Source: a virus
Lineage: Duplodnaviria; Heunggongvirae; Uroviricota; Caudoviricetes
Virus record (IMG/VR): IMGVR_UViG_3300021387_000895
Location: 1 to 27,301 of that record
DNA: 27,301 bases
Direction: 5' to 3' (one strand)
Part shown: one piece after another, positions 54 through 18,500 of the stretch
How positions within the stretch are numbered: position 1 is the stretch's first letter
Layout: each line of letters opens with the position of its first letter
Position numbers and translations under genes: made by a program
The notes under the pieces: model-generated
Told to the model about the DNA's origin: nothing
Seen by the model: only the letters and a program-made list of their open reading frames with translations
The model's database searches: none

Positions 54-704
54 ATGACTTACTATGTCGCAGGCATTCCTTATTCTCCAGATGACATATA
101 CCATCATGGTATAAGAGGTCAGAAGTGGGGATTGAGGCGTTTTCAGAATGATGATGGTTCTCTTACCGAAGAAGGTAAGAGGAGATATGGGACTAGTGAA
201 AATTTCGAAAACTACAAACAGTATAAAGCTGCTAAGTCTAATTATAGATGGGCGAAGGCAGCAAATTACGCTACTCTTCCTACTGGTATTTTGTCTCCAT
301 TTCATTTAGCAACAATGTATAACAAAAATTTGAGAAAAGCTCAGTACAAAGAGGCAAAATCAAATTATGAAGATAGCATGAAGAAGGCTACCGGTAGGGA
401 CCTTGCTAAAGAGAGAAAAGAAAGAGGAAAAGTGGCACTTAAGGCTGCCGGAGTTTTAGCTGGTGCGGCTCTCGCAACTTATGGTGCTTACAAGTTATCG
501 CAAGTAATTGATAAAGGTGACAGCGAATGGCTAAAAACCGGTAGGGATAATGCTGAACTAGCGATTTCGGCAATAGGGAAAGACAAGGTTTCAGCGAGCA
601 TATTCGAGAAGACAGGTAATGCAATAAAGTATTACACCGGCCATACTAATAAAAGGCGAAGCGCATCGATGACGAAACCAGTTGCTTTATTAAATGCTTA
701 TTGA
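54..704 (+). CDS. Conserved-leader (HxGIxGQKWG) family protein, copy 1; putative virion cargo protein
   Basis: N-terminus MTYYVAGIPYSPDDIYHHGIRGQKWGLRRFQNDDGSLTEEGKRRYG; Lys/Arg-rich; hydrophobic segment AAGVLAGAALATYGAYKL. Motif resembles DUF7211 as I recall it (unverified). Function inferred. Confidence 0.8.
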   Translation: MTYYVAGIPYSPDDIYHHGIRGQKWGLRRFQNDDGSLTEEGKRRYGTSENFENYKQYKAAKSNYRWAKAANYATLPTGILSPFHLATMYNKNLRKAQYKEAKSNYEDSMKKATGRDLAKERKERGKVALKAAGVLAGAALATYGAYKLSQVIDKGDSEWLKTGRDNAELAISAIGKDKVSASIFEKTGNAIKYYTGHTNKRRSASMTKPVALLNAY

Positions 705-1663: not shown

Positions 1664-1811
1664 GTGAGGTGAACTCAAAATGACTTACTATGTAGCTGGG
1701 TTACCTTACTCAGCTGAACTCTACCACTATGGTATACAAGGTCAAAAGTGGGGCTTAAGAAGGTTTCAGAATCCGGATGGAACAAGAACTCCTGAAGGTA
1801 AGATAAGGTAT
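1662..1811 (+). repeat. 150-bp direct repeat copy A (RBS + 44 leader codons), partner at 3057-3206
   Basis: Manual alignment: 18 upstream nt identical; 6 mismatches in 132 coding nt, all synonymous third positions. Confidence 0.95.
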
Positions 1812-2153
1812 AAAACTAAAGAAAGAACTAATTGGGAAAATGAAAGACTAAGTACAAAGCAGATTTTGAAGAATACTTCTAAAGAATTCAAATATAGTCA
1901 TCCAATTATGGCTCCGATTTTAAAAGGGATTGGTATTGGAGCTGTTACATATTTATTATCTAGAAAGATTTCATCCAAGGCTTCAGATTTAATTGATTCA
2001 GGTAATAATATTGTTATTGGAGCTGGAGTTGCGTCTGCTATTTTAGGTATTGTTGGTAAGATGTCTGCTTCATATATTATTGGATCTGGAATAGGCGAGG
2101 CTATGAACTCGTATAATGTGATTAAGAATAACGAATATCCTAGTAAGAATTAG
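1680..2153 (+). CDS. Conserved-leader family protein, copy 2
   Basis: MTYYVAGLPYSAELYHYGIQGQKWGLRRFQNPDGTRTPEGKIRY leader; two Gly-rich hydrophobic stretches in the C-terminal half; RBS GAGGTGA. Confidence 0.8.
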   Translation: MTYYVAGLPYSAELYHYGIQGQKWGLRRFQNPDGTRTPEGKIRYKTKERTNWENERLSTKQILKNTSKEFKYSHPIMAPILKGIGIGAVTYLLSRKISSKASDLIDSGNNIVIGAGVASAILGIVGKMSASYIIGSGIGEAMNSYNVIKNNEYPSKN

Positions 2154-2172
2154 AGATGCGAGGTGATTGTGT

Positions 2173-2542: not shown

Positions 2543-2571
2543 ATTAACATTACAGTTTGGAGGTAGTTATA

Positions 2572-3003
2572 ATGAAAAGATTAGTTGCTTTAGTTGTAAT
2601 GTTTCTGGTTTTTCAAATAGTTGCTTTCGCTTCTGTAGATATCGATCTTGATTCTTTAAGTGAATACGAATTGTTCGAACTCCAGATGGAAGTACAAGAA
2701 AAGCTTTATGAATACGATCCTTCTGCTGGGTTTATAATGTATCCTGGTGTCAGCATTGTTGGTAAGAATTTTGAAGCAGGATCATATGTTGTTAAAGTTG
2801 TTGAACCGATTGAGAACGAATACGATTTTCCGCCATATATAACTATATGGAAAAATGAAGATGTAATTGGAAGTATTATGCGAGAAGACTTTGTTGATGA
2901 CCCAAGTTTTAGAGAAAAAGATGATGTGTATCAGTGCAATTTAATTGACGGCATGTGTTTTGAATTGAATTATGGAGTTTTTCAATTCATAAAACGAAAA
3001 TAG
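2572..3003 (+). CDS. Moron: acidic exported protein with Sec signal peptide
   Basis: GGAGG RBS at 2559-2563 supports ATG 2572. MKRLVALVVMFLVFQIVAFA-S is an n/h/AxA signal peptide; mature part is D/E-rich; own promoter and terminator. Confidence 0.8.
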   Translation: MKRLVALVVMFLVFQIVAFASVDIDLDSLSEYELFELQMEVQEKLYEYDPSAGFIMYPGVSIVGKNFEAGSYVVKVVEPIENEYDFPPYITIWKNEDVIGSIMREDFVDDPSFREKDDVYQCNLIDGMCFELNYGVFQFIKRK

Positions 3004-3018
3004 AATATGCCGATAATC

Positions 3019-3046
3019 CGCTCCTCAATCGAGGGGCGTTTTTTTT
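3019..3046 (+). terminator. Rho-independent terminator
   Basis: CGCTCCTC-AATC-GAGGGGCG stem-loop (one G-U pair) followed by a T8 run. Confidence 0.9.
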
Positions 3047-3056
3047 ATGTCTTTAC

Positions 3057-3206
3057 GAGTGAGGTGAACTCAAAATGACTTACTACGTAGCTGGGTTACC
3101 TTACTCAGCTGAACTCTACCATTATGGTATACAAGGCCAAAAGTGGGGCTTAAGAAGGTTTCAGAATCCTGATGGGACAAGAACTCCTGAAGGTAAGATT
3201 AGGTAT
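3057..3206 (+). repeat. 150-bp direct repeat copy B, partner at 1662-1811
   Basis: See copy A; encodes an identical 44-aa leader. Confidence 0.95.
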
Positions 3207-3767
3207 AGAGAAAATGGGACTGGAAATTCTGGTTCTGCATCGTCAAATGGTAAAAACGAAAAACTGAAGAAGGCAGCAAAGATAGCGTTAATTACAGCAG
3301 GTACTGCAGCGGCTGCCTATGGTACATACCGTTTGGCTAAGAGTGGAGCTTTGAACGATGTAGCCAGTAAAATAGGCAATACAGCACGTTCTTTATCGAA
3401 CGGAACAAAGAGCAAAATTGTGGATTCGATTAGTAGACATAAAGCAGATAGAGAATTGAATACGGCTCGATCGAAAGAAAATGCTAAAAGAATGAAGGAT
3501 GCAATCAATGCATTTAAAATTCCTGACGATGAGCTTTTGAGTAGAATAGGACGATTAGAAAAAGAAGCTGAATATAGAAAACTTATATTAGAAAGTATTG
3601 AGTATACCCCAAATCCAAAGAATAAAGTATTTGTTGATGCGGGTAAGAAAGTTGCTGGTACTTTTCTTGCTGGTGCTGGTACTTATGCAATTAAAGCTCT
3701 GCTAACAAAGAAATTTAGTCCAAAAGAAGCTGCAGATTATGTTGCTCCGAAACCTAAGAAGAAATAA
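3075..3767 (+). CDS. Conserved-leader family protein, copy 3
   Basis: Leader identical to copy 2 for 44 aa, then unrelated; hydrophobic segments AAKIALITAGTAAAAYGTYRL and VAGTFLAGAGTYAIKALL; basic tail PKPKKK. Confidence 0.8.
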   Translation: MTYYVAGLPYSAELYHYGIQGQKWGLRRFQNPDGTRTPEGKIRYRENGTGNSGSASSNGKNEKLKKAAKIALITAGTAAAAYGTYRLAKSGALNDVASKIGNTARSLSNGTKSKIVDSISRHKADRELNTARSKENAKRMKDAINAFKIPDDELLSRIGRLEKEAEYRKLILESIEYTPNPKNKVFVDAGKKVAGTFLAGAGTYAIKALLTKKFSPKEAADYVAPKPKKK

Positions 3768-3779
3768 AGGAGGCATTCT

Positions 3780-5534
3780 ATGTCTCTTTCAAATACTGCT
3801 ATACCTATTTATTATGGAAGATTTAGAGATGCTGTTTTAAGAGGAGAAATTCCAGTTTGTCAAGAAATCTCGATGGAAATGAATCGTATCGATGATTTGA
3901 TTCGAGACCCAAGGTATTATTACGATGATCAAGCTGTAGAAGGTTTTGTCAAGTATTGTGAGCAAGAACTAACATTGACTGATGGATCAGATCTGCATTT
4001 GCTTGATTCGTTTAAGTTATGGGCTGAGGAGATATTTGGTTGGTATTACTTTGTTGAAAGAAGTGTGTATGAACCGTCTCCAGATGGCCATGGCGGTAAA
4101 TACGTAATAAAAACTGTTAAGAAGAGGCTTGTAAATAAGCAATTTCTTATTGTTGCCCGAGGAGCAGCAAAGTCGATGTATGCATCATGTATACAAAGCT
4201 TTGTTTTAAATATTGATGGATCTACAACTCTTCAGATAACGACTGCTCCAACAATGAAGCAGGCTGAAGAAGTAATGTCTCCTATTAGAACTTCCATTAC
4301 AAGATCTAGAGGTCCATTATTCCAATTTCTTACTGAAGGGTCACTTCAAAATACAACTGGTTCCAAAGCAGATAGAGTTAAATTAGCATCCACCAAAATA
4401 GGTATTCAAAACTTTATTACTGGTTCGCGAATAGAAGTAAGACCGATGTCAATAGATAAATTACAAGGTTTAAGACCAAAGGTATGCTCAGTTGACGAAT
4501 GGCTTTCTGGAGATATTAGGGAAGACGTTATAGGTGCGTTAGAGCAGGGAGCTTCTAAGGGTGGTATTGAGGATTATATAATTCTAGCCACCAGTTCGGA
4601 GGGCACTGTTCGAAATGCAGCCGGTGATGATATTAAAATGGAGCTTATGAAGATACTTCGTGGTGAGTATAAAAATGATCACGTATCTATCTGGTATTAT
4701 AAGCTTGATGATATTAGCGAAGTGGCCAAACCCTATATGTGGGTAAAAGCTAATCCTAATCTTGGTAAGACAGTTTCATATGAGACTTACCAATTGGATG
4801 TCGATCGTATGGAGCATGCTCCAGCAGTTCGAAACGATATTCTTGCTAAAAGATTTGGTATTCCAATGGAAGGTCATAGTTATTTCTTTACATATGAAGA
4901 AACTCTGCCGACAAATAGAAGAAACGACTTTTGGAAAATGCCATGCGCTTTAGGTGCTGATCTTTCCCAGGGTGATGACTTTTGTGCATTTACATTTTTG
5001 TTTCCTCTTAGAGATCAATCATTTGGTGTGAAGACTAGATGCTACATTACTTCTTTAACTCTTAATAGGCTTCCTATGTCTATGAGACTTAAATACGAGG
5101 AATTCATGAAAGAGGGTAGTTTAATCGTTCTTGAAGGAACGGTTTTAGATATTATGGAGGTTTACCAGGATCTCGATAAGTATATTGAAGAGTCTGGATA
5201 TGAAGTATTAGCATTTGGTTATGATCCATACAACGCAAAAGTATTCGTTGATCAATGGGCTTTGGAAAATGGTGATTATGCTATAGAAAAAGTTCCGCAG
5301 GGATCAAAAACTGAATCGGTTCCTCTTGGCGAAATAAAGAATTTAGCAAGTGAGCGCATGCTTTTGTTTGATCAGGAGCTTATGACATTTTGTATGGGAA
5401 ACTGCATAGCACTTGAAGATACAAATGGTAATAGAAAGCTTCTTAAGATGCGTAAGCAAGAGAAGATCGATGCTGTTGCAGCGATGCTTGATGCTTACGT
5501 TGCTTATAAGGCATATAAAGAGGTTTTTGAGTGA
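3780..5534 (+). CDS. terL: Terminase large subunit
   Basis: 584 aa; Walker A-like VARGAAKS, Walker B CSVDEW, TSSEG motif III region, nuclease GADLS and KIDAVAAMLDA. Confidence 0.95.
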   Translation: MSLSNTAIPIYYGRFRDAVLRGEIPVCQEISMEMNRIDDLIRDPRYYYDDQAVEGFVKYCEQELTLTDGSDLHLLDSFKLWAEEIFGWYYFVERSVYEPSPDGHGGKYVIKTVKKRLVNKQFLIVARGAAKSMYASCIQSFVLNIDGSTTLQITTAPTMKQAEEVMSPIRTSITRSRGPLFQFLTEGSLQNTTGSKADRVKLASTKIGIQNFITGSRIEVRPMSIDKLQGLRPKVCSVDEWLSGDIREDVIGALEQGASKGGIEDYIILATSSEGTVRNAAGDDIKMELMKILRGEYKNDHVSIWYYKLDDISEVAKPYMWVKANPNLGKTVSYETYQLDVDRMEHAPAVRNDILAKRFGIPMEGHSYFFTYEETLPTNRRNDFWKMPCALGADLSQGDDFCAFTFLFPLRDQSFGVKTRCYITSLTLNRLPMSMRLKYEEFMKEGSLIVLEGTVLDIMEVYQDLDKYIEESGYEVLAFGYDPYNAKVFVDQWALENGDYAIEKVPQGSKTESVPLGEIKNLASERMLLFDQELMTFCMGNCIALEDTNGNRKLLKMRKQEKIDAVAAMLDAYVAYKAYKEVFE

Positions 5535-5556
5535 TGTTGAGTGAGGTGAATTTAAA

Positions 5557-5979
5557 GTGACTTACTATGTTGTGGGATTGCCTTACTCTTCAGAACTTTT
5601 TCACTTTGGTATAAAAGGTCAGAAGTGGGGATTAAGACGCTTTCAGAATCCAGATGGAACCCTTACACCGGAAGGAAAGTCGAGATATGGAACTGTTGAG
5701 AGCTATAACAAAGCAAAGAATAGATCTAAAGCAGTAAAGATTGCTGTTTCTATTGGAGTTGCTTCCGTTATAGCTGGATTAGCTATATACGGCGGTTTAA
5801 AATTAAAGAACACAAATACTAGTTTTGTGGATTCAGCTTTTAGCAGTAGTGATTCTTTGTCAAACCTATTTGATAAAACGGTATCCGACATTACAGATTT
5901 CTCTTCTATCGATAATGCTAAAACTGCAGAGAAAGAGCTAAAGCGTATGCGATATGAATTGAATCGCAATTTGAGGTGA
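5557..5979 (+). CDS. Conserved-leader family protein, copy 4
   Basis: GTG start after GAGTGAGGTGAA; MTYYVVGLPYSSELFHFGIKGQKWGLRRFQNPDG; TM-like IAVSIGVASVIAGLAIYGGLKL. Confidence 0.8.
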   Translation: MTYYVVGLPYSSELFHFGIKGQKWGLRRFQNPDGTLTPEGKSRYGTVESYNKAKNRSKAVKIAVSIGVASVIAGLAIYGGLKLKNTNTSFVDSAFSSSDSLSNLFDKTVSDITDFSSIDNAKTAEKELKRMRYELNRNLR

Positions 5980-5980
5980 T

Positions 5981-5991
5981 AATCAAAATGG
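5981..5991 (+). repeat. AATCAAAATGG motif copy 1
   Basis: Exact 11-mer also at 9760, 11771 and 26344; this copy overlaps the start codon at 5988. Confidence 0.7.
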
Positions 5992-6596
5992 CATATATGG
6001 TCGCGGGTATCCCGTATTCTTCTGAATTGTATCATTGGGGTATAAAAGGTCAGAAGTGGGGATTAAGGCGTTTTCAGAATGAAGACGGTACTTTAACAGA
6101 AGAAGGTAAAGCTCGATATAGACGAGAGATTAATAAAATGGCATCTAAGGATGCTCAAAGAGTATCTGATGCTAAAGCTGCATATGGAACTGGAGCTGGC
6201 ACAAGACGTAAGCTTCTCAATAAAGAGATTAATCAAAAGCTTAAGAATCCAGATTATAGGAAGGCTTATGAGCAGGCCAGTCAGCATGTTAACGTTCCAA
6301 AGTCTCTAAGGAAAGCCGAATCGTTACACAGGCATGCCGGGACTTTTGAGCGCGGTCAGAGACTTGCTGACAGTGGAAAGAAGGTTTCTAGCAGCATTTT
6401 AAAGGCTGTTGGTGGAGCTGCTTTGACAGTCGGAGGAGCTTATGCCGCAGGGAAATTAAACGTGATGAATGGTGGTAATAAGGCTACTTCGAACGTGATA
6501 TTAGCTATTGGCGGAATATCGGCAGCAACTACACTTGGTAAGGGTGTACGCGATGCTTATCAAGTTAACTATTACGAGCGTAATAAAAAGTTTTAG
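5988..6596 (+). CDS. Conserved-leader family protein, copy 5
   Basis: GAGGTGA RBS at 5973-5979 supports ATG 5988 (MAYMVAGIPYSSELYHWGIKGQKWG); two Gly/Ala hydrophobic stretches near the C-terminus. Confidence 0.8.
   Translation: MAYMVAGIPYSSELYHWGIKGQKWGLRRFQNEDGTLTEEGKARYRREINKMASKDAQRVSDAKAAYGTGAGTRRKLLNKEINQKLKNPDYRKAYEQASQHVNVPKSLRKAESLHRHAGTFERGQRLADSGKKVSSSILKAVGGAALTVGGAYAAGKLNVMNGGNKATSNVILAIGGISAATTLGKGVRDAYQVNYYERNKKF
6069..6121 (+). repeat. 53-bp exact direct repeat copy A, partner at 7226-7278
   Basis: cgttttcagaatgaagacggtactttaacagaagaaggtaaagctcgatatag is present identically at both positions. Confidence 0.95.
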
Positions 6597-6613
6597 ACGG
6601 TGGTGAACTCCAA

Positions 6614-7561
6614 ATGACTTACTATGTCGCAGGTATCCCTTATTCTCCAAATGACATATACCATCATGGTATAAAGGGCCAGAAATGGGGATTAAGGCGT
6701 TTTCAGAATGATGATGGCTCTCTTACCGAAGAAGGTAGGAGGAGATATGGGACCGATAGCCTTGGAACTAATTCAAATAAAAGTCTTAGGCGATTTTTAA
6801 CAAATGACTTTGGCCCTCTTCAGAATAGTAAATTAAGAAATAAAAGAGAAGATCGTCTTAAAAATAAGGTTGATCAATTAAAGCGTGAAGGTAAGGATTC
6901 TACAAAGACTGAACGAAAATACGAAGCCCAGAAGCAAAAGAATATCGACTATGAGAAGTATACTGCTAATACTAGTACAAAGAAACTTATTGCTCAGTCT
7001 TTACTTATGTCTAATTATGGTGCTCGTAAATATAGGGAAGCTAGAGCAAGAGGAGCAGGACGAGTAAGAGCTATGGCTTCAACGGCATTTTTCAATACTC
7101 CTATTGGATTCGCTGCAACCAAACTATCTGAAAAGAAGGAGTATGGCGAATTTGTTCATAGCGATTCTTCTTTTAGTCAAGAGCTTTACCATTGGGGAAT
7201 AAAAGGGCAAAAATGGGGAGTGCGCCGTTTTCAGAATGAAGACGGTACTTTAACAGAAGAAGGTAAAGCTCGATATAGGAATAATCCCGATGCTGCAAAG
7301 AAGTACATTAAAGAAAACTGGATAAACTCTTATAATAAGACAGTAGATAGAATTAATCCAAAGATTAATGAGATTAATAAAAAGTACGAAGGTGTTGATT
7401 TTAATAAAGATAATGATGCTTATGAACGATATAACAAAGAAATGACATCTATGATGGATGAAGTTGCTAACAAAGTATTTGACGAAGATTATGGCGAGAT
7501 ACTAGAAATAAGCGGTCTAGGCAGAGATTGGATGGATAAACACGGCTGGAATGATCTGTGA
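6614..7561 (+). CDS. Conserved-leader family protein, copy 6 (two-unit fusion with two motif copies)
   Basis: N-terminal leader plus a second internal ELYHWGIKGQKWGVRRFQNEDG at nt ~7181, preceded by EFVHSDSSFSQ. Confidence 0.85.
   Translation: MTYYVAGIPYSPNDIYHHGIKGQKWGLRRFQNDDGSLTEEGRRRYGTDSLGTNSNKSLRRFLTNDFGPLQNSKLRNKREDRLKNKVDQLKREGKDSTKTERKYEAQKQKNIDYEKYTANTSTKKLIAQSLLMSNYGARKYREARARGAGRVRAMASTAFFNTPIGFAATKLSEKKEYGEFVHSDSSFSQELYHWGIKGQKWGVRRFQNEDGTLTEEGKARYRNNPDAAKKYIKENWINSYNKTVDRINPKINEINKKYEGVDFNKDNDAYERYNKEMTSMMDEVANKVFDEDYGEILEISGLGRDWMDKHGWNDL
7226..7278 (+). repeat. 53-bp exact direct repeat copy B
   Basis: Identical to 6069-6121. Confidence 0.95.
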
Positions 7562-7578
7562 TAAGTAGGTGATCATGC

Positions 7579-8529
7579 ATGACATACTACGTCGCAGGCA
7601 TTCCTTATTCTCCAAATGACATATACCATCATGGTATAAAGGGCCAGAAATGGGGAGTAAGACGTTACACTAATCCCGATGGTACTTTGACAGAAGAAGG
7701 GAAAAGACGATACGGCACTATTGAAAATTTCAATAGAGCTCAAGAACAGAGAAGACAGAGGATTGACGATAGTAGATGGGCTAGTGCTGCCAGAGGAAAT
7801 GAATTGCTTAATGATCGACAGGCAGTTAAGCGTAAAGCGGCTATTAGTGCAGCCGTGATGATTGGTGGTAGTTTAGTTGCTACTGGTGCTATGGCCGGCC
7901 TTATGAGGAAAGCGAAAGTTGATCCTCAGAAGGCTGCAAAGTATGCTTCAACTGCTACCAATGCTTTAGTAAAGCTTGGTATACTTGGAACAGCTGTGAA
8001 CGCAGCTAGAGATATTCATAATGCTAAGCAAGTTGAAAGACGAGATAAGACTGAAGCATTTAAGAAGAGTAGGACTAGTCAAAGTAAATCTTCAAATGGA
8101 TCTTCTAGTTTAAATAGGTATTCTAATAATAGAAATACGGCAAATGTTAAGGTAAGTGGAAGCAAGTTCAAAACGGTTGCTAAAGTTGGAGCAGGTCTTG
8201 CAGTAGCTGGTGCGGCTGTTTATGGAGCTAAGAAACTGAATGACATTGTCACTAAGGGTAATAATGATTATTTAAATGCTTTGCAGGGCGAGAGACTTTC
8301 AAAGTTATTTGAATCGGCTCAAAAAGATGCTAAGAAAAATAAAATTGATTATTATCTTGGACGAAAAACATCCCAGCAAAGAGATCGCGAAACAAAAAGA
8401 ATTAATGATATGTTAGATTACATGCGTAAAGCATACGATCAAGACTTTGAACGTCAAAAACATTCTAGTTTCATAAATAAGGCTTCTAACGCCATATCCT
8501 ATTATAATAAGGCACGTAAAAAGAAATAA
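7579..8529 (+). CDS. Conserved-leader family protein, copy 7
   Basis: MTYYVAGIPYSPNDIYHHGIKGQKWGVRR leader; three Ala/Gly hydrophobic stretches; very basic; C-terminal similarity to copy 1. Confidence 0.8.
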   Translation: MTYYVAGIPYSPNDIYHHGIKGQKWGVRRYTNPDGTLTEEGKRRYGTIENFNRAQEQRRQRIDDSRWASAARGNELLNDRQAVKRKAAISAAVMIGGSLVATGAMAGLMRKAKVDPQKAAKYASTATNALVKLGILGTAVNAARDIHNAKQVERRDKTEAFKKSRTSQSKSSNGSSSLNRYSNNRNTANVKVSGSKFKTVAKVGAGLAVAGAAVYGAKKLNDIVTKGNNDYLNALQGERLSKLFESAQKDAKKNKIDYYLGRKTSQQRDRETKRINDMLDYMRKAYDQDFERQKHSSFINKASNAISYYNKARKKK

Positions 8530-8541
8530 AGGGTGATCATT

Positions 8542-9882
8542 ATGCCAACAATATTTGAACGTATCCAGCATGGCTGGAACGCATTCAGGGGCAGAGATCG
8601 CCCCGATTTTCAGAACTATGGGTCTGGAACTTATAATCGACCAGATAGAAAGCGACTACGATCTGGTAATGAAAGAACTATCATTACAGCTATTTACAAC
8701 CGAATAGCTATGGATGTCGCGGCTAACAAGATTGAGCACGTTAGAGTGGATGAGAACGACATCTATCTTGAAACTGTCAAAGATTATCTTAATGATTGTC
8801 TTACAGTTGAAGCCAATATCGATCAGACTTCAAGAGCTTTCTTCCAAGATGTAGTAATTTCCATGTTTGATGAAGGATGTGTAGCTATAGTTCCTACTGA
8901 GGCTACTGTTGATCCTTCTAAATCATCTTCCTTTATTATTCAAAGCATGAGGGTTGGTAAAATAGTTCAATGGTATCCACGACATGTCAAGGTTGAAGTA
9001 TATGATGATTTAACAGGTCATATTAAGCAACTTACATACAGTAAGAGCGTTGTAGCCATTATTGAAAATCCTTTTTATGCGGTTATGAACGAACCGAATT
9101 CAATACTTCAACGATTAATTAGAAAATTAAACATGCTCGATGCTGTGGACGAACAGGCAAGTGCTGGTAAGCTGGATCTGATCATTCAGCTCCCATATGT
9201 CATCAAGTCTCAAGCAAGGCGAGAGCAGGCTGAAAATAGAAGAAAAGACATTGAACATCAGCTATCTGGTACAAAATACGGTATTGCTTATACCGATGGT
9301 ACCGAAAGAATTACTCAGTTAAATCGACCCGTTGAAAACAATTTAATGGGTCAGATTGAGTATCTTATGAATACTCTTTATTCACAGCTTGGTATAACTC
9401 CTGAGATACTCAATGGCACGGCAAATGAAGCTACGATGCTTAATTACAATAGTCGAACCATTGAGCCTATTTTATGTGCAATTGTTGATGAAATGAAACG
9501 TAAGTTCCTCACAAAGACTGCACGGACTCAGGGGCATTCCATAATATTCAGCAGTGAGCCGTTCAAGCTCGTTCCTGCGGGTAAGATCGCTGACATTGCT
9601 GAGAAGTTCGTTGCGAATGAGATTCTCACTCCTAACGAGCTTCGTTCTATTGCTGGTTTTAAGCCTTCGAAGGATTCAAGTGCAAACGAGCTTCGAAATC
9701 GTAGACTTAATGAGCCAGCAGAGGAGCAACCTATGCCACAAGGCGATGAGGTTGATCCAAATCAAAATGGCAGTTATGAAGATGATGGATCTTATGAGCA
9801 AGGTCAAGGCGATTCAGACAATATAGCGGATATGTCGATGACTGAGTTTAGTAGGATTGCATCTAATTCTAATACTGCGTAA
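8542..9882 (+). CDS. Portal protein
   Basis: ~446 aa between terL and the protease-capsid gene; AIYNRIAMDVA, LIIQLPY, QLGITPEIL.GTANEATMLNY..RTIEP, LTPNELRS motifs typical of HK97-type portals; acidic C-terminal tail. ATG 8542 preferred over GTG 8533 on RBS spacing. Confidence 0.92.
   Translation: MPTIFERIQHGWNAFRGRDRPDFQNYGSGTYNRPDRKRLRSGNERTIITAIYNRIAMDVAANKIEHVRVDENDIYLETVKDYLNDCLTVEANIDQTSRAFFQDVVISMFDEGCVAIVPTEATVDPSKSSSFIIQSMRVGKIVQWYPRHVKVEVYDDLTGHIKQLTYSKSVVAIIENPFYAVMNEPNSILQRLIRKLNMLDAVDEQASAGKLDLIIQLPYVIKSQARREQAENRRKDIEHQLSGTKYGIAYTDGTERITQLNRPVENNLMGQIEYLMNTLYSQLGITPEILNGTANEATMLNYNSRTIEPILCAIVDEMKRKFLTKTARTQGHSIIFSSEPFKLVPAGKIADIAEKFVANEILTPNELRSIAGFKPSKDSSANELRNRRLNEPAEEQPMPQGDEVDPNQNGSYEDDGSYEQGQGDSDNIADMSMTEFSRIASNSNTA
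9759..9774 (+). repeat. AATCAAAATGG motif copy 2 (16-bp AAATCAAAATGGCAGT)
   Basis: Within the portal 3' end, ~130 bp before the capsid gene; 16 bp identical to 26343-26358. Confidence 0.7.
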
Positions 9883-9902: not shown

Positions 9903-11759
9903 ATGGACGAAAAGTTTGACTTTGGCGGATACGCTACTAAGAATGATCTTCTTTGTTCTGATGGTCGAACGATTCGAAAGGATGCCTTTAAGGACTGTGA
10001 TGGCGCTAGCGTACCATTAGTTTGGCAGCATAGCCATGGTAAGCCTAGCGACGTTCTTGGTCACGCATTACTTGAAAATCGTGATGATGGCGTGTACGCA
10101 TATGGAGTCTTTAACGATACTGATTCTGGCAAGAATGCTAAGGAACTTGTCAGGCATCGCGACGTTAAGGCTCTTTCTATTTATGCAAATCAGCTTGTTC
10201 AGAAGGGGTCTGATGTTCTTCACGGTATGATTCGTGAAGTTAGTTTGTGCCTTGCTGGTGCTAATCCGGGTGCTATGATTGAAGACCTTTCTTTCGAACA
10301 TTTTGACGATGAGAACACTGAATTCGATGCGATGATCTATAACGGCGACAACATCGAGCTTGTTCATTCTGATGAGCCCAAGGAGTTAATTAAAGAGATG
10401 CCTGTGATCGAGCATGCGGATGAGCCTAAGGAAGAGCCTAAAGAGGCTCCTAAGGAGGAAAAAGAAATGGCTAATGAGCAGAATAACGAAAAGACTGTAA
10501 AGGATGTTTACGAGAGCCTGACTGATGAACAGAAGCAGGTTGTCAATTATATGATCGGTTATGCCGTTGAGCAGGCCAAGGGCGGCGATGCTTCCGGCGA
10601 AGAGGAGGACGAGAAAGAAATGAAGCAGAATGCGTTTTATGGTGAGGAGAACTTCCTGAGCCACGCGGAAATCACCGAGGCTATGGCCGATGTTATTAAG
10701 GACGGCAAGAAGTATGGTACTCTGAAGGATTCTCTGGAGCATCATATGGAAGAGGGTGTCCTGGCCCATGCCCAAATCGATACTACTGATATGGAGCTGC
10801 CTACTCTGACCAATCAGCAGTATAAGACTCAGTTTGGTTATGGTATTAACTCCCCTGAGTTCCTGTTCCCGGAAGCTCGTACCCTGTCTAATGTGCCTGA
10901 GTTTATCGGCCGCAACACTGACTGGGTGAAGGTTGTTATGAATGGTGTTCATCGTACCCCCTTCAGCCGTCTGAAGTCTCTGTTTGCTAACATCACTGAG
11001 GACGAGGCTCGTGCGAAGGGCTACATCAAGGGCAATATGAAGAAGAATGAGTTCTTCAGCCTGATGAAGCGTACCACAGTTCCTCAGACAGTTTATAAGA
11101 AGCAGAAGATGGATCGTGATGACATCACTGATATTACCGATTTCGATGTTGTCGCCTGGATCAAGGGCGAGATGCGCGTAATGCTTGATGAGGAAATTGC
11201 TCGTGCTATCCTGATTGGCGATGATCGTCTTGTTAATGATGACGACAAGATCTCCGAGGAGCACATCCGTCCTATCGTCAGCGATGCTCCGCTGTTCACT
11301 ATCAAGACTATTGTCACTCGCGGTGCTGATGAGTTTGCGACTGCTAAGAATTTCATGCGTTCTGCGATCCGTGCTCGTAAGGACTACAAGGGCTCCGGCA
11401 ATCCGACTCTGTTTACCACTGAGGATGTTCTGACTTCTATGCTGCTGATTGAGGATGGCATTGGCCATTACATCTATAAGAGTGAGTCTGAGCTGGCCAC
11501 TGCTCTGCGTGTCTCTAACATTGTGACTGTTCCTGTTATGGAAGGCTACAAGGATACCACTGGTAATGATCTGATGGGTGTTATTGTTAACCTGAAGGAC
11601 TATAATGTTGGCGCTGATAAGGGTGGCGAAGTCAATATGTTCGATGACTTCAATATCGATTACAACCAGTACATCTATCTGATTGAGACCAGGTGTTCTG
11701 GTGCTCTGATTAAGCCTTACTCTGCTATCGCCCTGTTTGCTGCTAAGGCTGGTGCCTAA
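9903..11759 (+). CDS. Prohead protease-scaffold-major capsid protein fusion
   Basis: N-terminal ~130 aa resembles HK97-type prohead proteases (FGGYAT, VPLVWQH, GHA, ALSIYAN, REVSLCLAGANPGA); acidic linker; C-terminal HK97-fold capsid-like region (EEIARAILIGD, FDDFNIDYNQYIYLIETRCSGAL); strong codon bias. Confidence 0.9.
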   Translation: MDEKFDFGGYATKNDLLCSDGRTIRKDAFKDCDGASVPLVWQHSHGKPSDVLGHALLENRDDGVYAYGVFNDTDSGKNAKELVRHRDVKALSIYANQLVQKGSDVLHGMIREVSLCLAGANPGAMIEDLSFEHFDDENTEFDAMIYNGDNIELVHSDEPKELIKEMPVIEHADEPKEEPKEAPKEEKEMANEQNNEKTVKDVYESLTDEQKQVVNYMIGYAVEQAKGGDASGEEEDEKEMKQNAFYGEENFLSHAEITEAMADVIKDGKKYGTLKDSLEHHMEEGVLAHAQIDTTDMELPTLTNQQYKTQFGYGINSPEFLFPEARTLSNVPEFIGRNTDWVKVVMNGVHRTPFSRLKSLFANITEDEARAKGYIKGNMKKNEFFSLMKRTTVPQTVYKKQKMDRDDITDITDFDVVAWIKGEMRVMLDEEIARAILIGDDRLVNDDDKISEEHIRPIVSDAPLFTIKTIVTRGADEFATAKNFMRSAIRARKDYKGSGNPTLFTTEDVLTSMLLIEDGIGHYIYKSESELATALRVSNIVTVPVMEGYKDTTGNDLMGVIVNLKDYNVGADKGGEVNMFDDFNIDYNQYIYLIETRCSGALIKPYSAIALFAAKAGA

Positions 11760-12422: not shown

Positions 12423-13403
12423 ATGGCTGTTGTCAAATGGGGAGAAAAGAAGAAACGGTATATAGAGTATGGTGTTTCGAAGGGCGTTCTTTATCCTAAT
12501 GGTAAAAAAGGTGTTGCTTGGAATGGATTAATAAGTATAAGCGAGAGCGCAAGTGGTGGAGAGCCTATAGATTTATTTGCTGACAATATGAATTATTGTT
12601 CATTCAGATCATTAGAGTTTTATGAAGCTACCATTGAAGCCTATACTTATCCTGAAGAATTTGAGGAATGCGATGGTACTTTGGAGATTGCGAATGGTAT
12701 TGGAATAGCTCAGCAAAGGAGATTACCATTTGGGTTGTGTTTTAGATCGGAAATAATTGATGCTGATGGTAATATTCGTAATGACGGATATAAGATACAT
12801 TTGATTTATAACGCAACAGCTTCTCCTACTGAGAAAGCGTATAGTACTATTAGCGATAATCCGGATGCTATTACATTTTCTTGGGAAATAAAAACAACAC
12901 CTTTTGTTATTAAAAGAAATAAAGCATCTTCGACCATTGTAATCGACACTACAAAAGCTGATTATTTGGCTGTCAAAGCTCTGGAGAATATTCTTTATGG
13001 CGATGATGAAAATGACCCAAGATTACCTAGTCCGAATGAAGTAACTAAGATATTGACTAATCTCAATGTAAAAAGAATTTTTATGGACGTCCTTTCAAAA
13101 GAAGGAAAATGGGTATGGGATACATTTAATTTTAATGTTGATACTGTTCCTATTGCAATAGATAGAGAATCGGAAAAGAGAGTATTGTTTAATCCAGGCC
13201 AAGATACTGAATATTCAGCTCCTTCCATAGCTTATACGATAATCGATGAAGGGGTTGAAAAGAATAAGTATATGGGGATTTTAATTGACAGCGTTAATCC
13301 AAGTGATATTGATTCTGATCTACATGAATCTCTTGATCTAATAGATTTAGGCGTAACAGAATCTGACGGTTTATACTATTATAAATACAATTTTTATGCT
13401 TAA
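12423..13403 (+). CDS. Major-tail-protein paralog with ~115-aa C-terminal extension
   Basis: First ~210 aa align by eye with 13416-14087 (GVAWNGL, ATIEAYTYPEEF.ECDG, GYK.H.IYNATASP.EK.Y.TI.D.PDAIT.SWE..TTP). Confidence 0.85.
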   Translation: MAVVKWGEKKKRYIEYGVSKGVLYPNGKKGVAWNGLISISESASGGEPIDLFADNMNYCSFRSLEFYEATIEAYTYPEEFEECDGTLEIANGIGIAQQRRLPFGLCFRSEIIDADGNIRNDGYKIHLIYNATASPTEKAYSTISDNPDAITFSWEIKTTPFVIKRNKASSTIVIDTTKADYLAVKALENILYGDDENDPRLPSPNEVTKILTNLNVKRIFMDVLSKEGKWVWDTFNFNVDTVPIAIDRESEKRVLFNPGQDTEYSAPSIAYTIIDEGVEKNKYMGILIDSVNPSDIDSDLHESLDLIDLGVTESDGLYYYKYNFYA

Positions 13404-13415: not shown

Positions 13416-14087
13416 ATGGCTGCTATTGTTTGGGATGAAACCGGTAAGAGGTTTTATGAAACCGGTGTAAATCATGGCGTATTATATCCTCAGAAGGCTG
13501 ATGGCACTTATGATAATGGCGTTGCATGGAACGGCTTAACCGGAGTTACCGAGAGCCCTGATGGCGCTGAGCCAAATGATCTTTATGCGGACAATATTAA
13601 GTATGCTTCTATTCGTTCTGCCGAGACATTTGGAGCTACGATTGAGGCTTATACTTATCCTGAAGAGTTTGCTGAGTGTGATGGTTCTGCTGCTCTGACT
13701 GATGGCGTTTACATTGGTCAGCAGTCTCGTAAGCCGTTTGCTTTCTCTTATCGTACTGAGGTTGGTAATGATACTCAGTCTGATAGTGATGATGGTTACA
13801 AGCTTCACATTATTTATAACGCTACCGCTTCTCCTTCTGAGAAGTCTTACGAGACTATTAATGATAGTCCTGATGCTATCACATTGTCTTGGGAGGTTTC
13901 TACTACTCCGATTCCTGTTAAAAATCACAAACCTACTGCTACGGTTGTTATTGATACAACTAAGCTTTCTGCTCAGGGTAAGACTAATCTCAAGACTTTG
14001 GAGGATAAGCTGTATGGGTCTGAAAATACAGATCCAACTCTCGTTCTGCCCGATGAAATTCTGTCTATTATGACTAGAACAGCTTGA
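13416..14087 (+). CDS. Major tail (tube) protein
   Basis: 223 aa; tail-tube motifs as above; AAGGAGG RBS; codon usage similar to the capsid gene. Confidence 0.9.
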   Translation: MAAIVWDETGKRFYETGVNHGVLYPQKADGTYDNGVAWNGLTGVTESPDGAEPNDLYADNIKYASIRSAETFGATIEAYTYPEEFAECDGSAALTDGVYIGQQSRKPFAFSYRTEVGNDTQSDSDDGYKLHIIYNATASPSEKSYETINDSPDAITLSWEVSTTPIPVKNHKPTATVVIDTTKLSAQGKTNLKTLEDKLYGSENTDPTLVLPDEILSIMTRTA

Positions 14088-15156: not shown

Positions 15157-15548
15157 GTTTAATGTTGCAATTTAAGCAAACTGGCGGTTTTAAGAAAACT
15201 GCAAAACTTCTTGCTAAACTTGGAGAAGGCAATTTTTATAAAGGGTTAGATGCTATTGCTCAAAGAGGAGTATCTGATTTAGAGGCAGCAACTCCTGTTG
15301 ATACTGGCAAAACAGCTTCATCTTGGAGTTATACAATAAAGAAGTCTAAAGATGGAGCAACGATTAGTTTTAATAATTCAAACATTAATAAAGGTGTAAA
15401 TGTCGCCTTACTTATACAATATGGGCATGGCACTGCTCAAGGGGTGTATATAGAAGGTGTTGACTATATTAACCCGGCTTTGAAACCAATTTTTGAAGCT
15501 ATGGGTAAAAGAGTTTGGGAGGAGGTGACTCAGAATGCCAATGATTGA
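15153..15548 (+). CDS. HK97 gp10-like tail component
   Basis: ATPVDTGKTASSW and VALLIQYGHGT motifs characteristic of the gp10 family; GTG start overlaps the upstream TGA. Confidence 0.75.
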   Translation: MSLMLQFKQTGGFKKTAKLLAKLGEGNFYKGLDAIAQRGVSDLEAATPVDTGKTASSWSYTIKKSKDGATISFNNSNINKGVNVALLIQYGHGTAQGVYIEGVDYINPALKPIFEAMGKRVWEEVTQNAND

Positions 15549-18500
15549 TAAAAACGTAGTTCAAATGGTATTTGATAACAAACAATTTGAACAAGGCGTT
15601 GCCCAGAGTACGCAATCATTAGAAAAGCTTAAAAAAGGTCTTGAATTAGACAAGGCAACGGCTAGTTTATCTAATATTGAAAAAGCAGCTCATAGGTTAG
15701 ATTTATCTGGAATCTCGGATGGTGTAGAAAAAATACAAGAAAAGTTTTCCATGCTTGGCGTTCTTGGTGTCACGGCTATGCAGCGAATAGCTAATGCTGC
15801 TATTGATACTGGAACAAGGATTGTTAAGGCAATTTCTATAGACAACATTGGCGCTGGTCAACAGAAATACCAAACTCAAACAAAAGCTGTACAAACTATT
15901 ATTGCAGCTACTGGTAAGCCACTTCAAGAAGTAGAAACTGTGTTAAGTGATCTTATGAAGTATACTGACGAAACTTCATATGACTTCTCAGGAATGGTTT
16001 CTAGTATCGGTAAATTTACTGCGGCTGGTGTAGATCTAAAGATCGCCGAGAAAGCGATGGAAGGTATTGCTAATGAGGCTGCACGATCCGGTGCTGGCGT
16101 TCAAGAAGCAAACCGTGCTATGTACAATTTTGCTCAGTCATTGTCACAAGGTTCTGTAAAGTTGATAGACTGGAAATCAATAGCGTTAGCCAATATGGCA
16201 ACAAAAGAATTTAAAGAAGAACTGATAAAGACTGCTATTGCATCCGGAACTTTAACAAAGGCTAGTGATAAGACTGGCTATGTGATGAAGCAGACGAAGA
16301 AAGCAACTAAGAAAACTGCTGCTGAGTTTAAAAAGACAGAAGTTAATTATAAGTCTTTTGAAAGTACGCTTAGCGAGGGTTGGCTTACTTCCGATGTTCT
16401 GATTAAGACTTTAAATAGATATGCCGATACAACTACGGAAATAGGTAAAGCTTCATTCGCAGCTGCAAAAGAGTATCTTACTTTTGGCGATGTCATGCAG
16501 ACTATTGCAGATAGTGTTAGCTCTGGGTGGATGAGGACTTTTAAAGCTTTATTTGGTAATCTTGATGAAGCTAGAAATTTATGGACTCGCGTCGGTGACT
16601 CTATATTAAATTTTACTTCGATATTTACTGATGCTCGTAATGAGTTGGTAGAAGGATGGCATGAATTAGGAGGCTATAATACTGCTGTTGAGGCTGCTTC
16701 GAATCTTTGGCACACATTCATGAACATAGTTGAAGGTGTTAAGCAAGCTTTTGAAGAGATATTTCCTCCTATTACAGCACAAAATTTAGTTACTATTACT
16801 GATGAGATAGAGAAACAGACTAATAGACTTAAAAAATTATTTGGAATCGATACGGAAACTGAAATAGAAGAAACATATAATGTAATTATCGATAAAGCAA
16901 AAGAATTAAATCAAAATCTAAAAATAGGTGATCATAGCGATTATACTAGAGTTTTACAAGAATTACTTATTAAAAAGGGTTTTTTAGATAAAGGCCAGGC
17001 CGATGGTATTTATGGCCCTAAGACAGAAGCAGCTGTAAAAAAGTTGCAAAAAACATTAGGTGTAGATGTTACTGGGTCTTGGGATGACGCGACTCGTAAA
17101 GCTGCCATAGCACAGAAAACGTTTGCTGAAACTCAGGAAAAAACACGAACTGTAACAAAGAAAAATGTTGAAAAAGTAACAGAGAAGTACAAAGAGACTA
17201 TTAATTATGCAGAAAAAATAAATAAACTGTTGGGGCGTGGAGATCAGGGAGATCAGGTCAAGATGCTTCAAGAGCAATTGATTAGAAATAAATTGCTAGA
17301 TAAGGGGCAAGCTGATGGCGTTTATGGTCCAAAGACAGAAGCAGCTGTAAAAGAATTACAGAAGAAACTCGGAGTAGAGGTAACCGGGTCTTGGGATCAT
17401 GCAACCAGAGCCGCTGCGATGTCTAGTAAAATGTTTCAAAAAACAATTGAAAAAGAAAGAGAAGTATATAAGCCAACAGCCGGTTTGACAAAGAGCATGG
17501 TAGCTCTACAAAATATAGCAAAAGGTTTCTTTTCAATAATCAAGATTGGCAAAGATATCGGCGGATTTGTGATACGAGTATTCAAAGTATTTTTGGGATT
17601 ATTTAAGCCATTAATAAAACCAATTACGAGAATAATGGAAGTATTTGGTGTTATGTTCGAAAGTCTTGAGTGGGACTTAAGAAAAAGTGGCGGAATACTA
17701 GATACTTGGGAGAAAAATATTAGAAAAAAGCTTGGCCCATTAGGTAATTTTATTAAAAAAATAGCTAAGGCATTGCAAGGCTTTATAGATAGATTTTTGA
17801 TAGGATCAAAGAAATTAACTAAAAAGACATACGGATTAACAGATAGGGTTATTGTAAGATTTGATTGGTTTTTATCATATTTGAAGCATGAAATTAAGCG
17901 GACTAAGATTGGAAAGTTTATATTTGACACTTGGGATAAAATCAAACCGATCTTTGGAAATGTTAAAGAATTCTTAGGAAAATTTAAGGAATCTATTTCT
18001 GGATTCTTCAAGACCCTAACTAAGCCAATGACTGATAAAAAGGGGAATCCAGTTGGTTTTATAGATAGAATTAAAGAGGCTTTGAAATCATTCAAGGGTG
18101 TTTGGGATTGGATAAAGAAAACCTTTGGGAATTTGTTTGGTCCTAAAGATGCGTCAGGTGCGGAAAATTCTTTCAATTTATTAGAAGGTATAGGAAAAGT
18201 AATTAAGAAAGTAATCAAGTTTATAAAAACTATTAATATAGCACAATTAGCTTTATTCGCAACTGGTCTTATCGCAGCATTTAAGATGTATAAGCGTATT
18301 AAAGCTCCGATGGATGTAGTTACAAATATTGCCGAGATTCCGAAGAAGATATCTAAAGCTATTGGCGGTCATGATTCTCGAAAATGGCTTGATAGTATAG
18401 GTGAATTTGCAAAGAATATTGGCATAGGAGTGGCATTACTAGCTGCTTCTGTGTTTGGTATTGCTCAGCTTGATCAAGGAAAAGCATGGTCGGCGGTTGG

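What the first reader, a model, noticed from the sequence alone, without database searches (positions are those of the whole stretch)
10293..10775. Candidate prohead-protease cleavage code (hydrophobic-x-His) shared by the capsid linker and the leader family
Seen: the linker between protease and capsid domains holds six hydrophobic-x-H motifs in ~160 aa: FEHFD (10293), ELVHSD (10356), IEHAD (10407), LSHAE (10656), LEHHM (10734), LAHAQ (10761). Every leader contains the same pattern (DIYHHG, ELYHYG, ELFHFG, ELYHWG), and gene 6614 has EFVHSD, nearly the same as the capsid's ELVHSD. Established: prohead proteases cut scaffold regions and internal proteins at short repeated motifs (T4 gp21 and phiKZ gp175 cut after Glu). 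Inference: this protease cuts at or next to His, maturing the capsid and trimming ~16-17 leader residues to expose xGIxGQKWG N-termini. His-directed maturation would be unusual.
Basis: partly seen in the sequence, partly recalled or inferred. Interest (0 to 1): 0.85.

Follow-up and report, generated by a model that had tools for sequence, protein, structure and literature searches.

The report
His-marked cut sites in capsid polyprotein
This gut phage makes its head protease, scaffold and coat protein as one chain whose spacer carries a conserved "hydrophobic-x-His" motif, most likely the protease's cutting sites; the same three residues open a tag on seven neighbouring small basic proteins, but no cutting has been measured.

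Summary
Gene 9903-11759 encodes an S78 prohead protease, an acidic/helical scaffold-like linker and an HK97-fold capsid protein. This is the known "major capsid and protease fusion" family. In 151 representatives (50%-identity clusters), 90% of linker His residues have a hydrophobic residue at -2 (24% expected). No other residue type shows this, and capsid-domain His does not. The consensus is [LIMV]-x-H-[SA]-[DE]. Sites mark the end of the protease fold and the start of the capsid arm, and their number grows with linker length. The register matches proven prohead-protease sites (T4 L/I-x-E, SPN3US A-x-E then Ser), so cleavage after His is the best reading (about 0.7).

The "leaders" are Pfam DUF7211. 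All 238 copies examined keep L/I/F-x-H. They almost always accompany this fusion, three homologues carry the tag inside their own linker, and internal copies usually have a linker-type site about 11 residues upstream. Cutting at the tag's own His is less sure (about 0.4), because the next residue is aromatic rather than small.

I found no published cleavage data. The scan has noted this link before on other DNA. Verdict: a new variant of a known kind.

The parts
9903..11759 (+). Protease-scaffold-capsid fusion gene (618 aa)
   Evidence: [quoted passage not shown]
9903..10292 (+). Prohead protease domain, aa 1-130; H43 and S92 invariant
   Evidence: AlphaFold pLDDT above 94 for aa 11-120, last strand 125-129; H43 is His in 151/151 representatives and H43 and S92 are invariant in the 80-sequence alignment
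10293..10301 (+). Site 1, F-E-H133, directly after the protease fold
   Evidence: His in 151/151 representatives; -2 I/L/F/M; +1 S/G/A/D; +2 D/E; pLDDT falls below 50 from residue 133
10359..10367 (+). Site 2, L-V-H155 (then S-D), in the disordered acidic spacer
   Evidence: His in 138/151 representatives
10407..10415 (+). Site 3, I-E-H171 (then A-D), in the variable acidic spacer
   Evidence: His in 92/151, 36 gaps; spacer copies vary in number between homologues
10620..10628 (+). Degenerate site M-K-Q242 (family consensus M-K-H-N-V-F); His lost in this phage
   Evidence: His in 81/151 representatives at this column, Gln here
10497..10751 (+). Scaffold-like helical region, aa 199-283
   Evidence: AlphaFold helices 199-226, 255-271 and 274-283
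10656..10664 (+). Site 4, L-S-H254 (then A-E), at the N-cap of helix 255-271
   Evidence: His in 129/151 representatives
10734..10742 (+). Site 5, L-E-H280 (then H-M); found in a subgroup only
   Evidence: The column is gapped in about 90 of 151 representatives
10761..10769 (+). Site 6, L-A-H289 (then A); predicted maturation cut that would free the capsid N-arm
   Evidence: His in 136/151, Tyr or Phe in 10; lies in a coil just before the HK97 fold
10770..11756 (+). Predicted mature HK97-fold capsid protein, aa 290-618, 37.0 kDa
   Evidence: Foldseek matches to mature capsids (GTA 6tb9, HK97 1ohg, Adephagia 8ec2; probability 1.0, about 320 aligned columns); mass
54..704 (+). Tag protein 1 (216 aa, pI 9.8); tag at 96-140, His17
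1680..2153 (+). Tag protein 2 (157 aa); tag at 1713-1763, His16
3075..3767 (+). Tag protein 3 (230 aa); tag at 3108-3158; first 44 residues identical to protein 2
5557..5979 (+). Tag protein 4 (140 aa); tag at 5590-5640
5976..6596 (+). Tag protein 5 (206 aa from GTG 5976, or 202 aa from ATG 5988); tag at 6018-6071
6614..7561 (+). Tag protein 6 (315 aa), a two-module protein; tags at 6656-6700 and 7175-7228
   Evidence: Pfam DUF7211 45.6 bits against a cut-off of 27, two stretches
7148..7165 (+). E-F-V-H-S-D junction site in gene 6614; its His lies 11 residues before the second tag's His
7579..8529 (+). Tag protein 7 (316 aa, pI 10.3); tag at 7621-7668

Best explanation
Gene 9903-11759 is a self-processing head polyprotein. 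It has an HK97-type (MEROPS S78) serine protease domain (aa 1-130), an acidic disordered spacer plus two scaffold-like helical segments (aa 133-289), and an HK97-fold capsid protein (aa 290-618).

Inference: after procapsid assembly the protease cuts after His in [LIMV](P3)-x(P2)-H(P1), followed by [S/A](P1')-[D/E](P2'). The cut at His133 would free the protease. Cuts at 155, 171, 254 and 280 would dice the scaffold into acidic peptides of 9-83 residues that can leave the shell. The cut at His289 would create the mature 37-kDa capsid N-arm.

The seven neighbouring basic proteins begin with a DUF7211 tag whose first conserved residues are the same P3-P1 triplet (L/I-x-H). Their leaders before the His are 4-21 residues long family-wide and 15-16 here. 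This resembles the 10-residue T4 capsid-targeting sequence, which ends in the gp21 site. The tag most likely addresses these proteins to the assembling head. It is either trimmed at its His or held by the protease as a substrate-like handle.

Shown here: the motif, its family-wide conservation and its linker specificity; its position at domain borders; its co-occurrence with the tag and its fusion to it. Inferred: that it is cut, on which side of His, and by the phage protease.
For: (1) Enrichment. 90% of 1028 linker His in 151 representatives have a hydrophobic residue at -2, against 24% expected. Other residue types lie at 13-33%, and capsid-domain His at 33% against a hydrophobic-residue share of 34% there. 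The logo at +1 is S .31 and A .27; at +2 it is D .44 and E .17. The same holds in 120 closer homologues.

(2) Independent gains. 58% of lineage-specific linker His obey the rule. Extra copies of the type EELxHA[SD] appear in non-homologous acidic inserts.

(3) Position. H133 is invariant (151/151) and sits at the exact end of the confident protease fold. H289 (136/151) sits just before the HK97 fold.

(4) Site number rises with linker length: Spearman 0.46, p = 3e-9, +1.5 sites per 100 aa.

(5) The register is that of proven sites of homologous proteases. T4 gp21 cuts after L/I-X-E and dices scaffold gp22 into fragments (PMC9026906). SPN3US gp245 cuts after A-X-E with a preference for Ser at P1', and has several sites per propeptide (PMC10052503).

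(6) Tag. 238 of 238 DUF7211 copies have His, with L/I/F two residues before it. 209 of 238 lie within 27 residues of a predicted start.

(7) Linkage. Among viral contigs chosen by the tag alone, 28 of 28 with at least 9 kb downstream, and 42 of 43 with at least 6 kb, encode this fusion. In bacterial genome contigs the figure is 40 of 45. All 67 tag copies found in fusion-selected loci lie upstream of the fusion on the same strand.

(8) Natural fusions. P0135, P0144 and P0173 carry a DUF7211-headed, site-free insert of about 150-340 aa inside their own linker, flanked by canonical sites.

(9) Ten of 16 internal tags have a hydrophobic-x-His 5-18 residues (mostly 10-11) upstream, against 7.7% of control windows.

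(10) Lactococcus phage 1706 orf7, with two tags plus SLAHS and VILHS, is labelled 'structural protein' in the authors' GenBank record.

(11) The cargo proteins are basic (pI 9.5-10.3) and the predicted linker fragments are acidic (pI 4.1-5.0).
Against: There are no experimental termini for any member of the family in the literature I could reach. Summer 2011 and Garneau 2008 are not held.

His at P1 is not reported for any prohead protease in the papers I read, and I know of none.

H133 is as invariant as the catalytic His, so a catalytic or structural role cannot be excluded without coordinates.

Four of the five His in the protease domain also have a hydrophobic residue at -2. Part of the pattern therefore lies in folded protein, where cleavage is not expected.

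The tag's P1' is aromatic, not small. An upstream canonical site in front of internal tags makes cleavage at the tag's own His unnecessary.

Only 17 of 30 fusion loci with at least 8 kb upstream carry the tag, so the protease code does not need the tag.

Co-occurrence may simply reflect one phage lineage.
Confidence: 0.6

Rival explanations
1. The linker sites are cut as above, but the DUF7211 tag is not cut at its own His. The L-x-H-aromatic-Gly start acts as an uncleaved, substrate-like docking element, or is simply part of a small binding motif for the scaffold, shell interior, portal or DNA. It would keep cargo in the head. Internal tags would be freed by the separate canonical site about 11 residues upstream.
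For: P1' is H/Y/W/F followed by Gly in 228 of 238 tags, against Ser/Ala/Gly in most linker sites. Conservation continues for about 15 residues after the His family-wide, and for about 30 in this window. Ten of 16 internal tags have their own upstream canonical site. Leaders can be as short as 4 residues.
Against: L/I/F and His are invariant in 238 of 238 tags, even where the rest of the tag is degenerate, as in the polymerase's RLSHYG...PWG. The window's own site 1 has Phe at P1', so an aromatic residue there does not exclude a site.
Confidence: 0.27
2. The His motifs are not protease sites. They are metal-binding or pH-sensing elements (His next to Asp/Glu) that control scaffold-shell contacts or scaffold release.
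For: His followed by Ser/Ala and Asp/Glu, within a very acidic linker, could chelate divalent cations. His titrates near physiological pH (inference only).
Against: The strongest constraint besides His is a hydrophobic residue at -2 with a small residue at +1. That is a protease subsite pattern. Sites occur singly at domain borders and in disordered spacers rather than in clusters. Their number scales with linker length.
Confidence: 0.06
3. The sites are cut by a host protease, as Staphylococcus phage 80alpha uses host Prp, rather than by the fused S78 domain.
For: There is a precedent of host-protease use in Firmicutes phages (my own knowledge; earlier scan note e1-1938466).
Against: The same motif is kept in phages of Actinobacteria (Gordonia, Arthrobacter, Streptomyces, Rhodococcus) and of Firmicutes (Lactococcus, Faecalibacterium), while the protease domain with invariant His43 and Ser92 travels with it in one chain.
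Confidence: 0.05

Closest known systems
T4 gp21 prohead protease with scaffold gp22 and the capsid-targeting sequences (CTS) of the internal proteins IPI-III and Alt (PMC9026906)
   Same: A short site with hydrophobic P3, any P2 and a fixed P1. The scaffold is diced into several fragments. Short N-terminal propeptides end in the protease site and load variable, basic cargo proteins.
   Different: P1 would be His rather than Glu. The protease is S78 (HK97-type), not S77, and is fused to scaffold and capsid in one chain. The conserved part of the tag lies mostly after the putative cut, whereas the T4 CTS lies before it. Nothing has been tested experimentally.
SPN3US gp245 and phiKZ gp175 prohead proteases (PMC10052503)
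   Same: An A-X-E motif at P3-P1 with a preference for Ser at P1'. Several sites per propeptide. Many ejection proteins are processed.
   Different: These are jumbo myoviruses with a separate protease gene and Glu at P1.
[quoted passage not shown]
   Same: Direct homologues (46-54% identity over the full length) with the same three-part layout. The window's gene is a member.
   Different: The papers I could read describe the fusion but give no cleavage sites or motif.
HK97 gp4 protease and the gp5 delta domain (my own knowledge: cleavage after Lys103)
   Same: The same protease family (Pfam PF04586) and the same logic: an N-terminal scaffold domain is removed from an HK97-fold capsid protein.
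   Different: The protease is a separate gene in HK97. The reported P1 is Lys, and no His rule is known.
Pfam DUF7211 (PF23847)
   Same: The 'leader' motif is this family. Gene 6614 scores 45.6 bits against a cut-off of 27.
   Different: Pfam gives no function, and no paper in the searched library mentions it.

Membership tests
Peptidase S78 (HK97-type prohead protease, PF04586) | Profile match above the curated cut-off | tested here: met
   21.6 bits against a cut-off of 21, aa 7-93. This is marginal, but phrog_80 and phrog_3244 'head maturation protease' also match.
Peptidase S78 (HK97-type prohead protease, PF04586) | Conserved catalytic His and Ser | tested here: met
   H43 is His in 151/151 representatives. 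H43 and S92 are invariant in the 80-sequence alignment. Their assignment as catalytic residues rests on analogy, not on a structure comparison.
Peptidase S78 (HK97-type prohead protease, PF04586) | Proteolytic activity on head proteins | not testable with these tools
   Needs expression or virion mass spectrometry.
HK97-fold major capsid protein | HK97 fold of the C-terminal domain | tested here: met
   Foldseek against the PDB gave probability 1.0 and E about 1e-12 to mature capsids (6tb9, 9ocb, 8ec2, 1ohg), with about 320 aligned columns. pLDDT is mostly above 90 for aa 400-618.
Major capsid and protease fusion family (phrog_3270) | Full-length homology: protease, linker and capsid in one ORF | tested here: met
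   phrog_3270 E = 7e-213 over aa 3-611. tblastn covered 98-99% of the query in 243 phage records.
DUF7211 (PF23847) | Profile match above the cut-off of 27 bits | tested here: inconclusive
   Gene 6614 is above it (45.6 bits). The tags at 7175 and 7621 score 31.2 and 27.9 bits in the genome search. The other five copies score 16.8-24.4 bits but share the same invariant residues.
T4-type capsid-targeting sequence system | Short N-terminal propeptide ending in the head protease's site | tested here: inconclusive
   The sequence layout fits: leaders of 4-21 residues end in L/I-x-H. Whether the site is a protease site is itself an inference.
T4-type capsid-targeting sequence system | Tag needed for loading into the head, and cargo present in virions | not testable with these tools
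   The only hint is that 1706 orf7, with two tags, is labelled 'structural protein' by its depositors.

The most novel reading that the evidence does not exclude
A large lineage of phages of Gram-positive bacteria uses a prohead protease with His at P1, a specificity not reported for this enzyme clan. Every capsid subunit carries its own protease domain. The tag's L-x-H-aromatic-Gly start would then act as a substrate mimic that docks cargo onto these roughly 400 built-in receptors per procapsid. The cargo would include basic membrane-active proteins, enzymes and the phage's RNA polymerase. One three-residue code would thus both load and release injected proteins.
Probability: 0.15. Interest if true: 0.8.

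Novelty: new variant of a known kind. Interest (0 to 1): 0.6.

Why it matters
If it is true, it gives a simple, predictive rule for a widespread phage lineage. That lineage includes gut Clostridia prophages, dairy Lactococcus phages and hundreds of isolated actinophages.

- The rule predicts where the head polyprotein is cut and what the mature capsid N-terminus is.
- It predicts which neighbouring genes encode proteins carried in the head.
- It would add a new P1 specificity (His) to the assemblin/HK97 protease clan.
- It would give a handle for loading foreign proteins into these capsids.
- Members can be grown in the laboratory (1706, FP_oengus, cluster DJ, AU and BI phages), so it can be tested directly by virion mass spectrometry.

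Tried and rejected
- **Complex prediction.** Complex prediction with the protease domain (aa 1-136, alignment A2) and the tag (alignment A3) gave no verdict (score 0.09, mark 0.32). The tool could not be reached four times before that.
- **Solved structures.** A sequence search of the PDB with the fusion gave no hit, so no solved capsid of this family gives a first ordered residue.
- **Literature.**
  - Summer 2011 (ReqiPepy6) and Garneau 2008 (1706) are not held.
  - Searches for cleavage data on the fusion family, DUF7211, Arthrobacter phage mass spectrometry and T5 pb11 found nothing relevant.
- **Near-identical phage DNA.** None in the phage collection.
- **Specificity switch.** I looked for a subclade that replaced His by another residue at all sites, which would have been a covariation test. 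None exists: all 151 representatives keep several His sites, and only the last site is sometimes Tyr or Phe.
- **Whole-proteome count.** The strict motif is not enriched outside the fusion: 2 found against 2.2 expected.
- **Autoproteolysis rejected.** I considered His-Ser type autoproteolysis, as at Nup98/PIDD HFS or GPS sites. Ala is as common as Ser after the His, which rules it out.
- **Exceptions to co-occurrence.** L204, L224 and L228 were checked with PHROGs. L204 and L224 show non-head neighbourhoods; L224 lies on a large contig that holds other tag loci. L228 has a terminase followed by tail-fibre-like genes, a possible misassembly. L197 and L242 were not scanned.
Full report
**Context**

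The window is the first 27.3 kb of a 94.5-kb IMG/VR virus record, which CheckV rates complete. All long genes are on the + strand. They form a siphophage head and tail module:
- large terminase, 3780-5534;
- portal, 8533-9882;
- a 618-aa protease-capsid fusion, 9903-11759;
- tail genes;
- a 2248-aa tape measure protein.

Seven genes around the terminase and before the portal begin with the same roughly 45-residue sequence.

**The observation**

Their residues and positions in the fusion protein are:
- F-E-H133;
- L-V-H155;
- I-E-H171;
- L-S-H254;
- L-E-H280;
- L-A-H289.

Six of the seven His between residues 131 and 290 have a hydrophobic residue two places before. All eight tag copies in the window have I/L-Y/F-H followed by an aromatic residue and Gly. 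Gene 6614 has E-F-V-H-S-D, with its His 11 residues before the His of its second tag.

**What the gene is**

The fusion matches phrog_3270 over its full length (E = 7e-213) and Pfam Peptidase_S78 at its N-terminus. It has full-length homologues, at up to 54% identity, in 244 phage records. [quoted passage not shown] The records also include Streptomyces and Rhodococcus phages, Lactococcus phages, and Faecalibacterium phage FP_oengus. Phage 1706 orf10 is a further member.

An AlphaFold model built on 80 homologues shows four parts:
- a confident protease fold, residues 1-130;
- a disordered acidic spacer, 133-195;
- helices at 199-226 and 255-283;
- a confident C-terminal domain.

Foldseek matches the C-terminal domain to mature HK97-fold capsids over about 320 columns. 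H43 is His in all 151 representatives, and H43 and S92 are invariant in the 80-sequence alignment. The literature I could read knows the three-part fusion but gives no processing sites.

**Is the motif more than chance?**

I collected 120 close homologues and 150 cluster representatives at 50% identity. In the representatives:
- 925 of 1028 linker His (90%) have LIVMFYW at -2.
- Within-sequence shuffles give 247 ± 13.
- None of the other 19 residue types exceeds 33%.
- His in the capsid domain shows 33%, close to the 34% share of hydrophobic residues there.
- His is three times denser in the linker than in the capsid domain.

The logo is [L .42, I .20, M .12, V .11]-x-H-[S .31, A .27]-[D .44, E .17].

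Conservation by column:

| Position | His in 151 representatives |
|---|---|
| H133 | 151 |
| H155 | 138 |
| H254 | 129 |
| H289 | 136 |
| H171 | 92 |

A further family site, M-K-H-N-V-F, has His in 81 of 151. It reads M-K-Q-N-A-F in this phage.

His residues at lineage-specific columns still follow the rule in 58% of cases. Extra copies turn up in non-homologous acidic inserts. So the rule is re-created independently and is not merely inherited. Site number grows with linker length (Spearman 0.46, p = 3e-9). No subclade has swapped His for another residue across its sites.

**How it most likely works**

The constrained positions are a hydrophobic residue, any residue, His, then a small residue. 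[quoted passage not shown]
- T4 gp21 cuts after L/I-X-E and dices scaffold gp22 into fragments that leave the head (PMC9026906).
- SPN3US gp245 cuts after A-X-E with a preference for Ser at P1', and has several sites per propeptide (PMC10052503).

The sites here lie at the exact end of the protease fold, within the disordered spacer, at helix ends, and just before the capsid N-arm. I therefore read them as cuts after His. They would yield:
- a 14.6-kDa protease;
- acidic peptides of 1.0-9.5 kDa;
- a 37.0-kDa mature capsid protein starting at Ala290.

This is inference. No terminus has been measured in any member, and the two papers most likely to hold such data are not available to me. I know of no prohead protease with His at P1 (own knowledge).

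**The leaders**

The shared N-terminus is Pfam DUF7211. No paper in the library mentions it.

In loci of related phages I found 238 distinct copies, using a pattern that did not require His. All 238 have His, and all 238 have L, I or F two residues before it. The next residue is H, Y, W or F in 228. Leaders before the His are 4-21 residues long, and 29 copies are internal.

Linkage to the fusion is tight in one direction:
- Among viral contigs selected by the tag alone, 28 of 28 (at least 9 kb downstream) and 42 of 43 (at least 6 kb) encode this fusion.
- In bacterial genomes, mostly gut Clostridia, it is 40 of 45.
- Conversely, 17 of 30 fusion loci with at least 8 kb upstream carry tags, always upstream and on the same strand.

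Three distant homologues carry the tag inside their own linker. It heads a site-free insert of about 150-340 residues that is flanked by canonical sites.

Among 16 strictly internal tags, 10 have a hydrophobic-x-His, mostly of the H-S-[D/E] type, about 10-11 residues upstream. Only 7.7% of control windows do. The window's E-F-V-H-S-D is one of these.

Phage 1706 orf7 carries two tags and two further L-x-H-S sites. Its depositors call it a structural protein. Gordonia phage Duffington has tags on gp16, gp18 and gp19.

The window's tag proteins are basic (pI 9.5-10.3), and four have Ala/Gly-rich hydrophobic segments. The linker fragments are acidic.

**Reading of the tag**

The layout parallels the T4 capsid-targeting sequence: a short N-terminal peptide that ends in the protease site, placed on variable basic cargo. 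Two points keep me from accepting leader trimming outright. The residue after the His is aromatic rather than small. And internal tags bring their own canonical site, which suggests that the tag needs a free N-terminal stretch of about 10 residues rather than a cut at its own His. I give about 0.4 to cleavage at the tag's His and about 0.3 to an uncleaved docking role. The complex prediction for protease plus tag gave no verdict.

**Rivals**

A metal-binding or pH-sensing role does not explain the hydrophobic -2 and small +1 positions, nor the border positions. A host protease is unlikely, because the motif and the fused protease travel together across phages of Actinobacteria and Firmicutes. 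Chance is excluded.

**Earlier notes of this scan**

The scan has flagged DUF7211 tags 42 times in at least 32 genomes. At least one of those notes makes the same His link (e1-5335038), and one covers 54-8529 of this window (e1-5398176). I treated these notes as leads. One lead held here: the phage's RdRP-like RNA polymerase (phrog_4291, genome 90365-93262) starts with R-L-S-H-Y-G...P-W-G, so it keeps the L-x-H-Y-G start.

**Verdict**

The leader-trimming part is open. This is a new variant (His at P1, fused protease, tag conserved after the site) of the known scheme in which a prohead protease works with a capsid-targeting tag.

Noticed in passing
G000 genome 90365-93262 (L248:566-3463), outside the window: The phage's 965-aa RdRP-like RNA polymerase (phrog_4291, E = 0) starts with a diverged tag, S-R-L-S-H-Y-G-T-P-R-H-S-G-R-Y-P-W-G. 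It keeps L-x-H-Y-G although the K-G-x-K-W-G core has decayed. The polymerase may therefore be head cargo too.
   Followed up: partly
window 9903-10292 (protease domain): Four of the five His in the folded protease domain also have a hydrophobic residue at -2 (W-Q-H43, L-G-H54, V-R-H85, V-L-H107); the figure is 74% across the family. H43 is the likely catalytic His. The others could be self-digestion sites or structural residues. Unexplained.
   Followed up: partly
window 1680-2153 and 3075-3767: These two tag genes encode identical first 44 residues and then diverge completely. This suggests recent duplication or gene conversion of the tag with swapped C-terminal parts.
   Followed up: no
window 1235-1663: An HNH-endonuclease-like ORF (motif H-H-I-N-P-I ... 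H-K-A-I-H) sits among the tag genes upstream of the terminase, as in related phages.
   Followed up: no
window 12423-13403 and 13416-14087: Two adjacent paralogous genes share a conserved N-terminal region of about 200 residues; the first has an extra C-terminal domain. They resemble the duplicated major tail protein described for cluster AU and related phages.
   Followed up: no
window 15535-22281: The 2248-aa tape measure protein holds two copies of a repeat of about 55 residues that looks like a peptidoglycan-binding domain (L-D-K-G-Q-A-D-G-x-Y-G-P-K-T-E-A-A-V-K), plus a long series of hydrophobic repeats.
   Followed up: no
G000 genome 27309-27767 (L249:310-768), just past the window: This is the only other strict [LIVMF]-x-H-[SA]-[DE] match in the 94.5-kb proteome (L-I-Q-H-A-D-E at residue 36 of a 152-aa phrog_20016 protein of unknown function). 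It may be chance: 2 found against 2.2 expected outside the fusion.
   Followed up: partly
L003:2077-3789 (Gordonia phage Duffington gp16): This 570-aa protein has two H-x-T-L motifs in its first 120 residues (2H-phosphoesterase-like by eye), then nine hydrophobic-x-His motifs between residues 175 and 344, then an internal DUF7211 tag at residue 358. It looks like a cargo polyprotein that carries an enzyme.
   Followed up: no
L003:8333-8944 (Duffington gp21, between the portal and the fusion): A coiled-coil-like basic protein starts with ...P-L-E-E-L-F-H-E-Y. It has the E-L-x-H start but lacks the K-G-M-K-W-G core. This may be a second substrate class.
   Followed up: no
window 8533-9882 (portal): The portal has I-Q-H-G at residues 11-14, near its N-terminus. 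Three of its six His have a hydrophobic residue at -2, which is not significant. Portals are processed in T4 and SPN3US.
   Followed up: no
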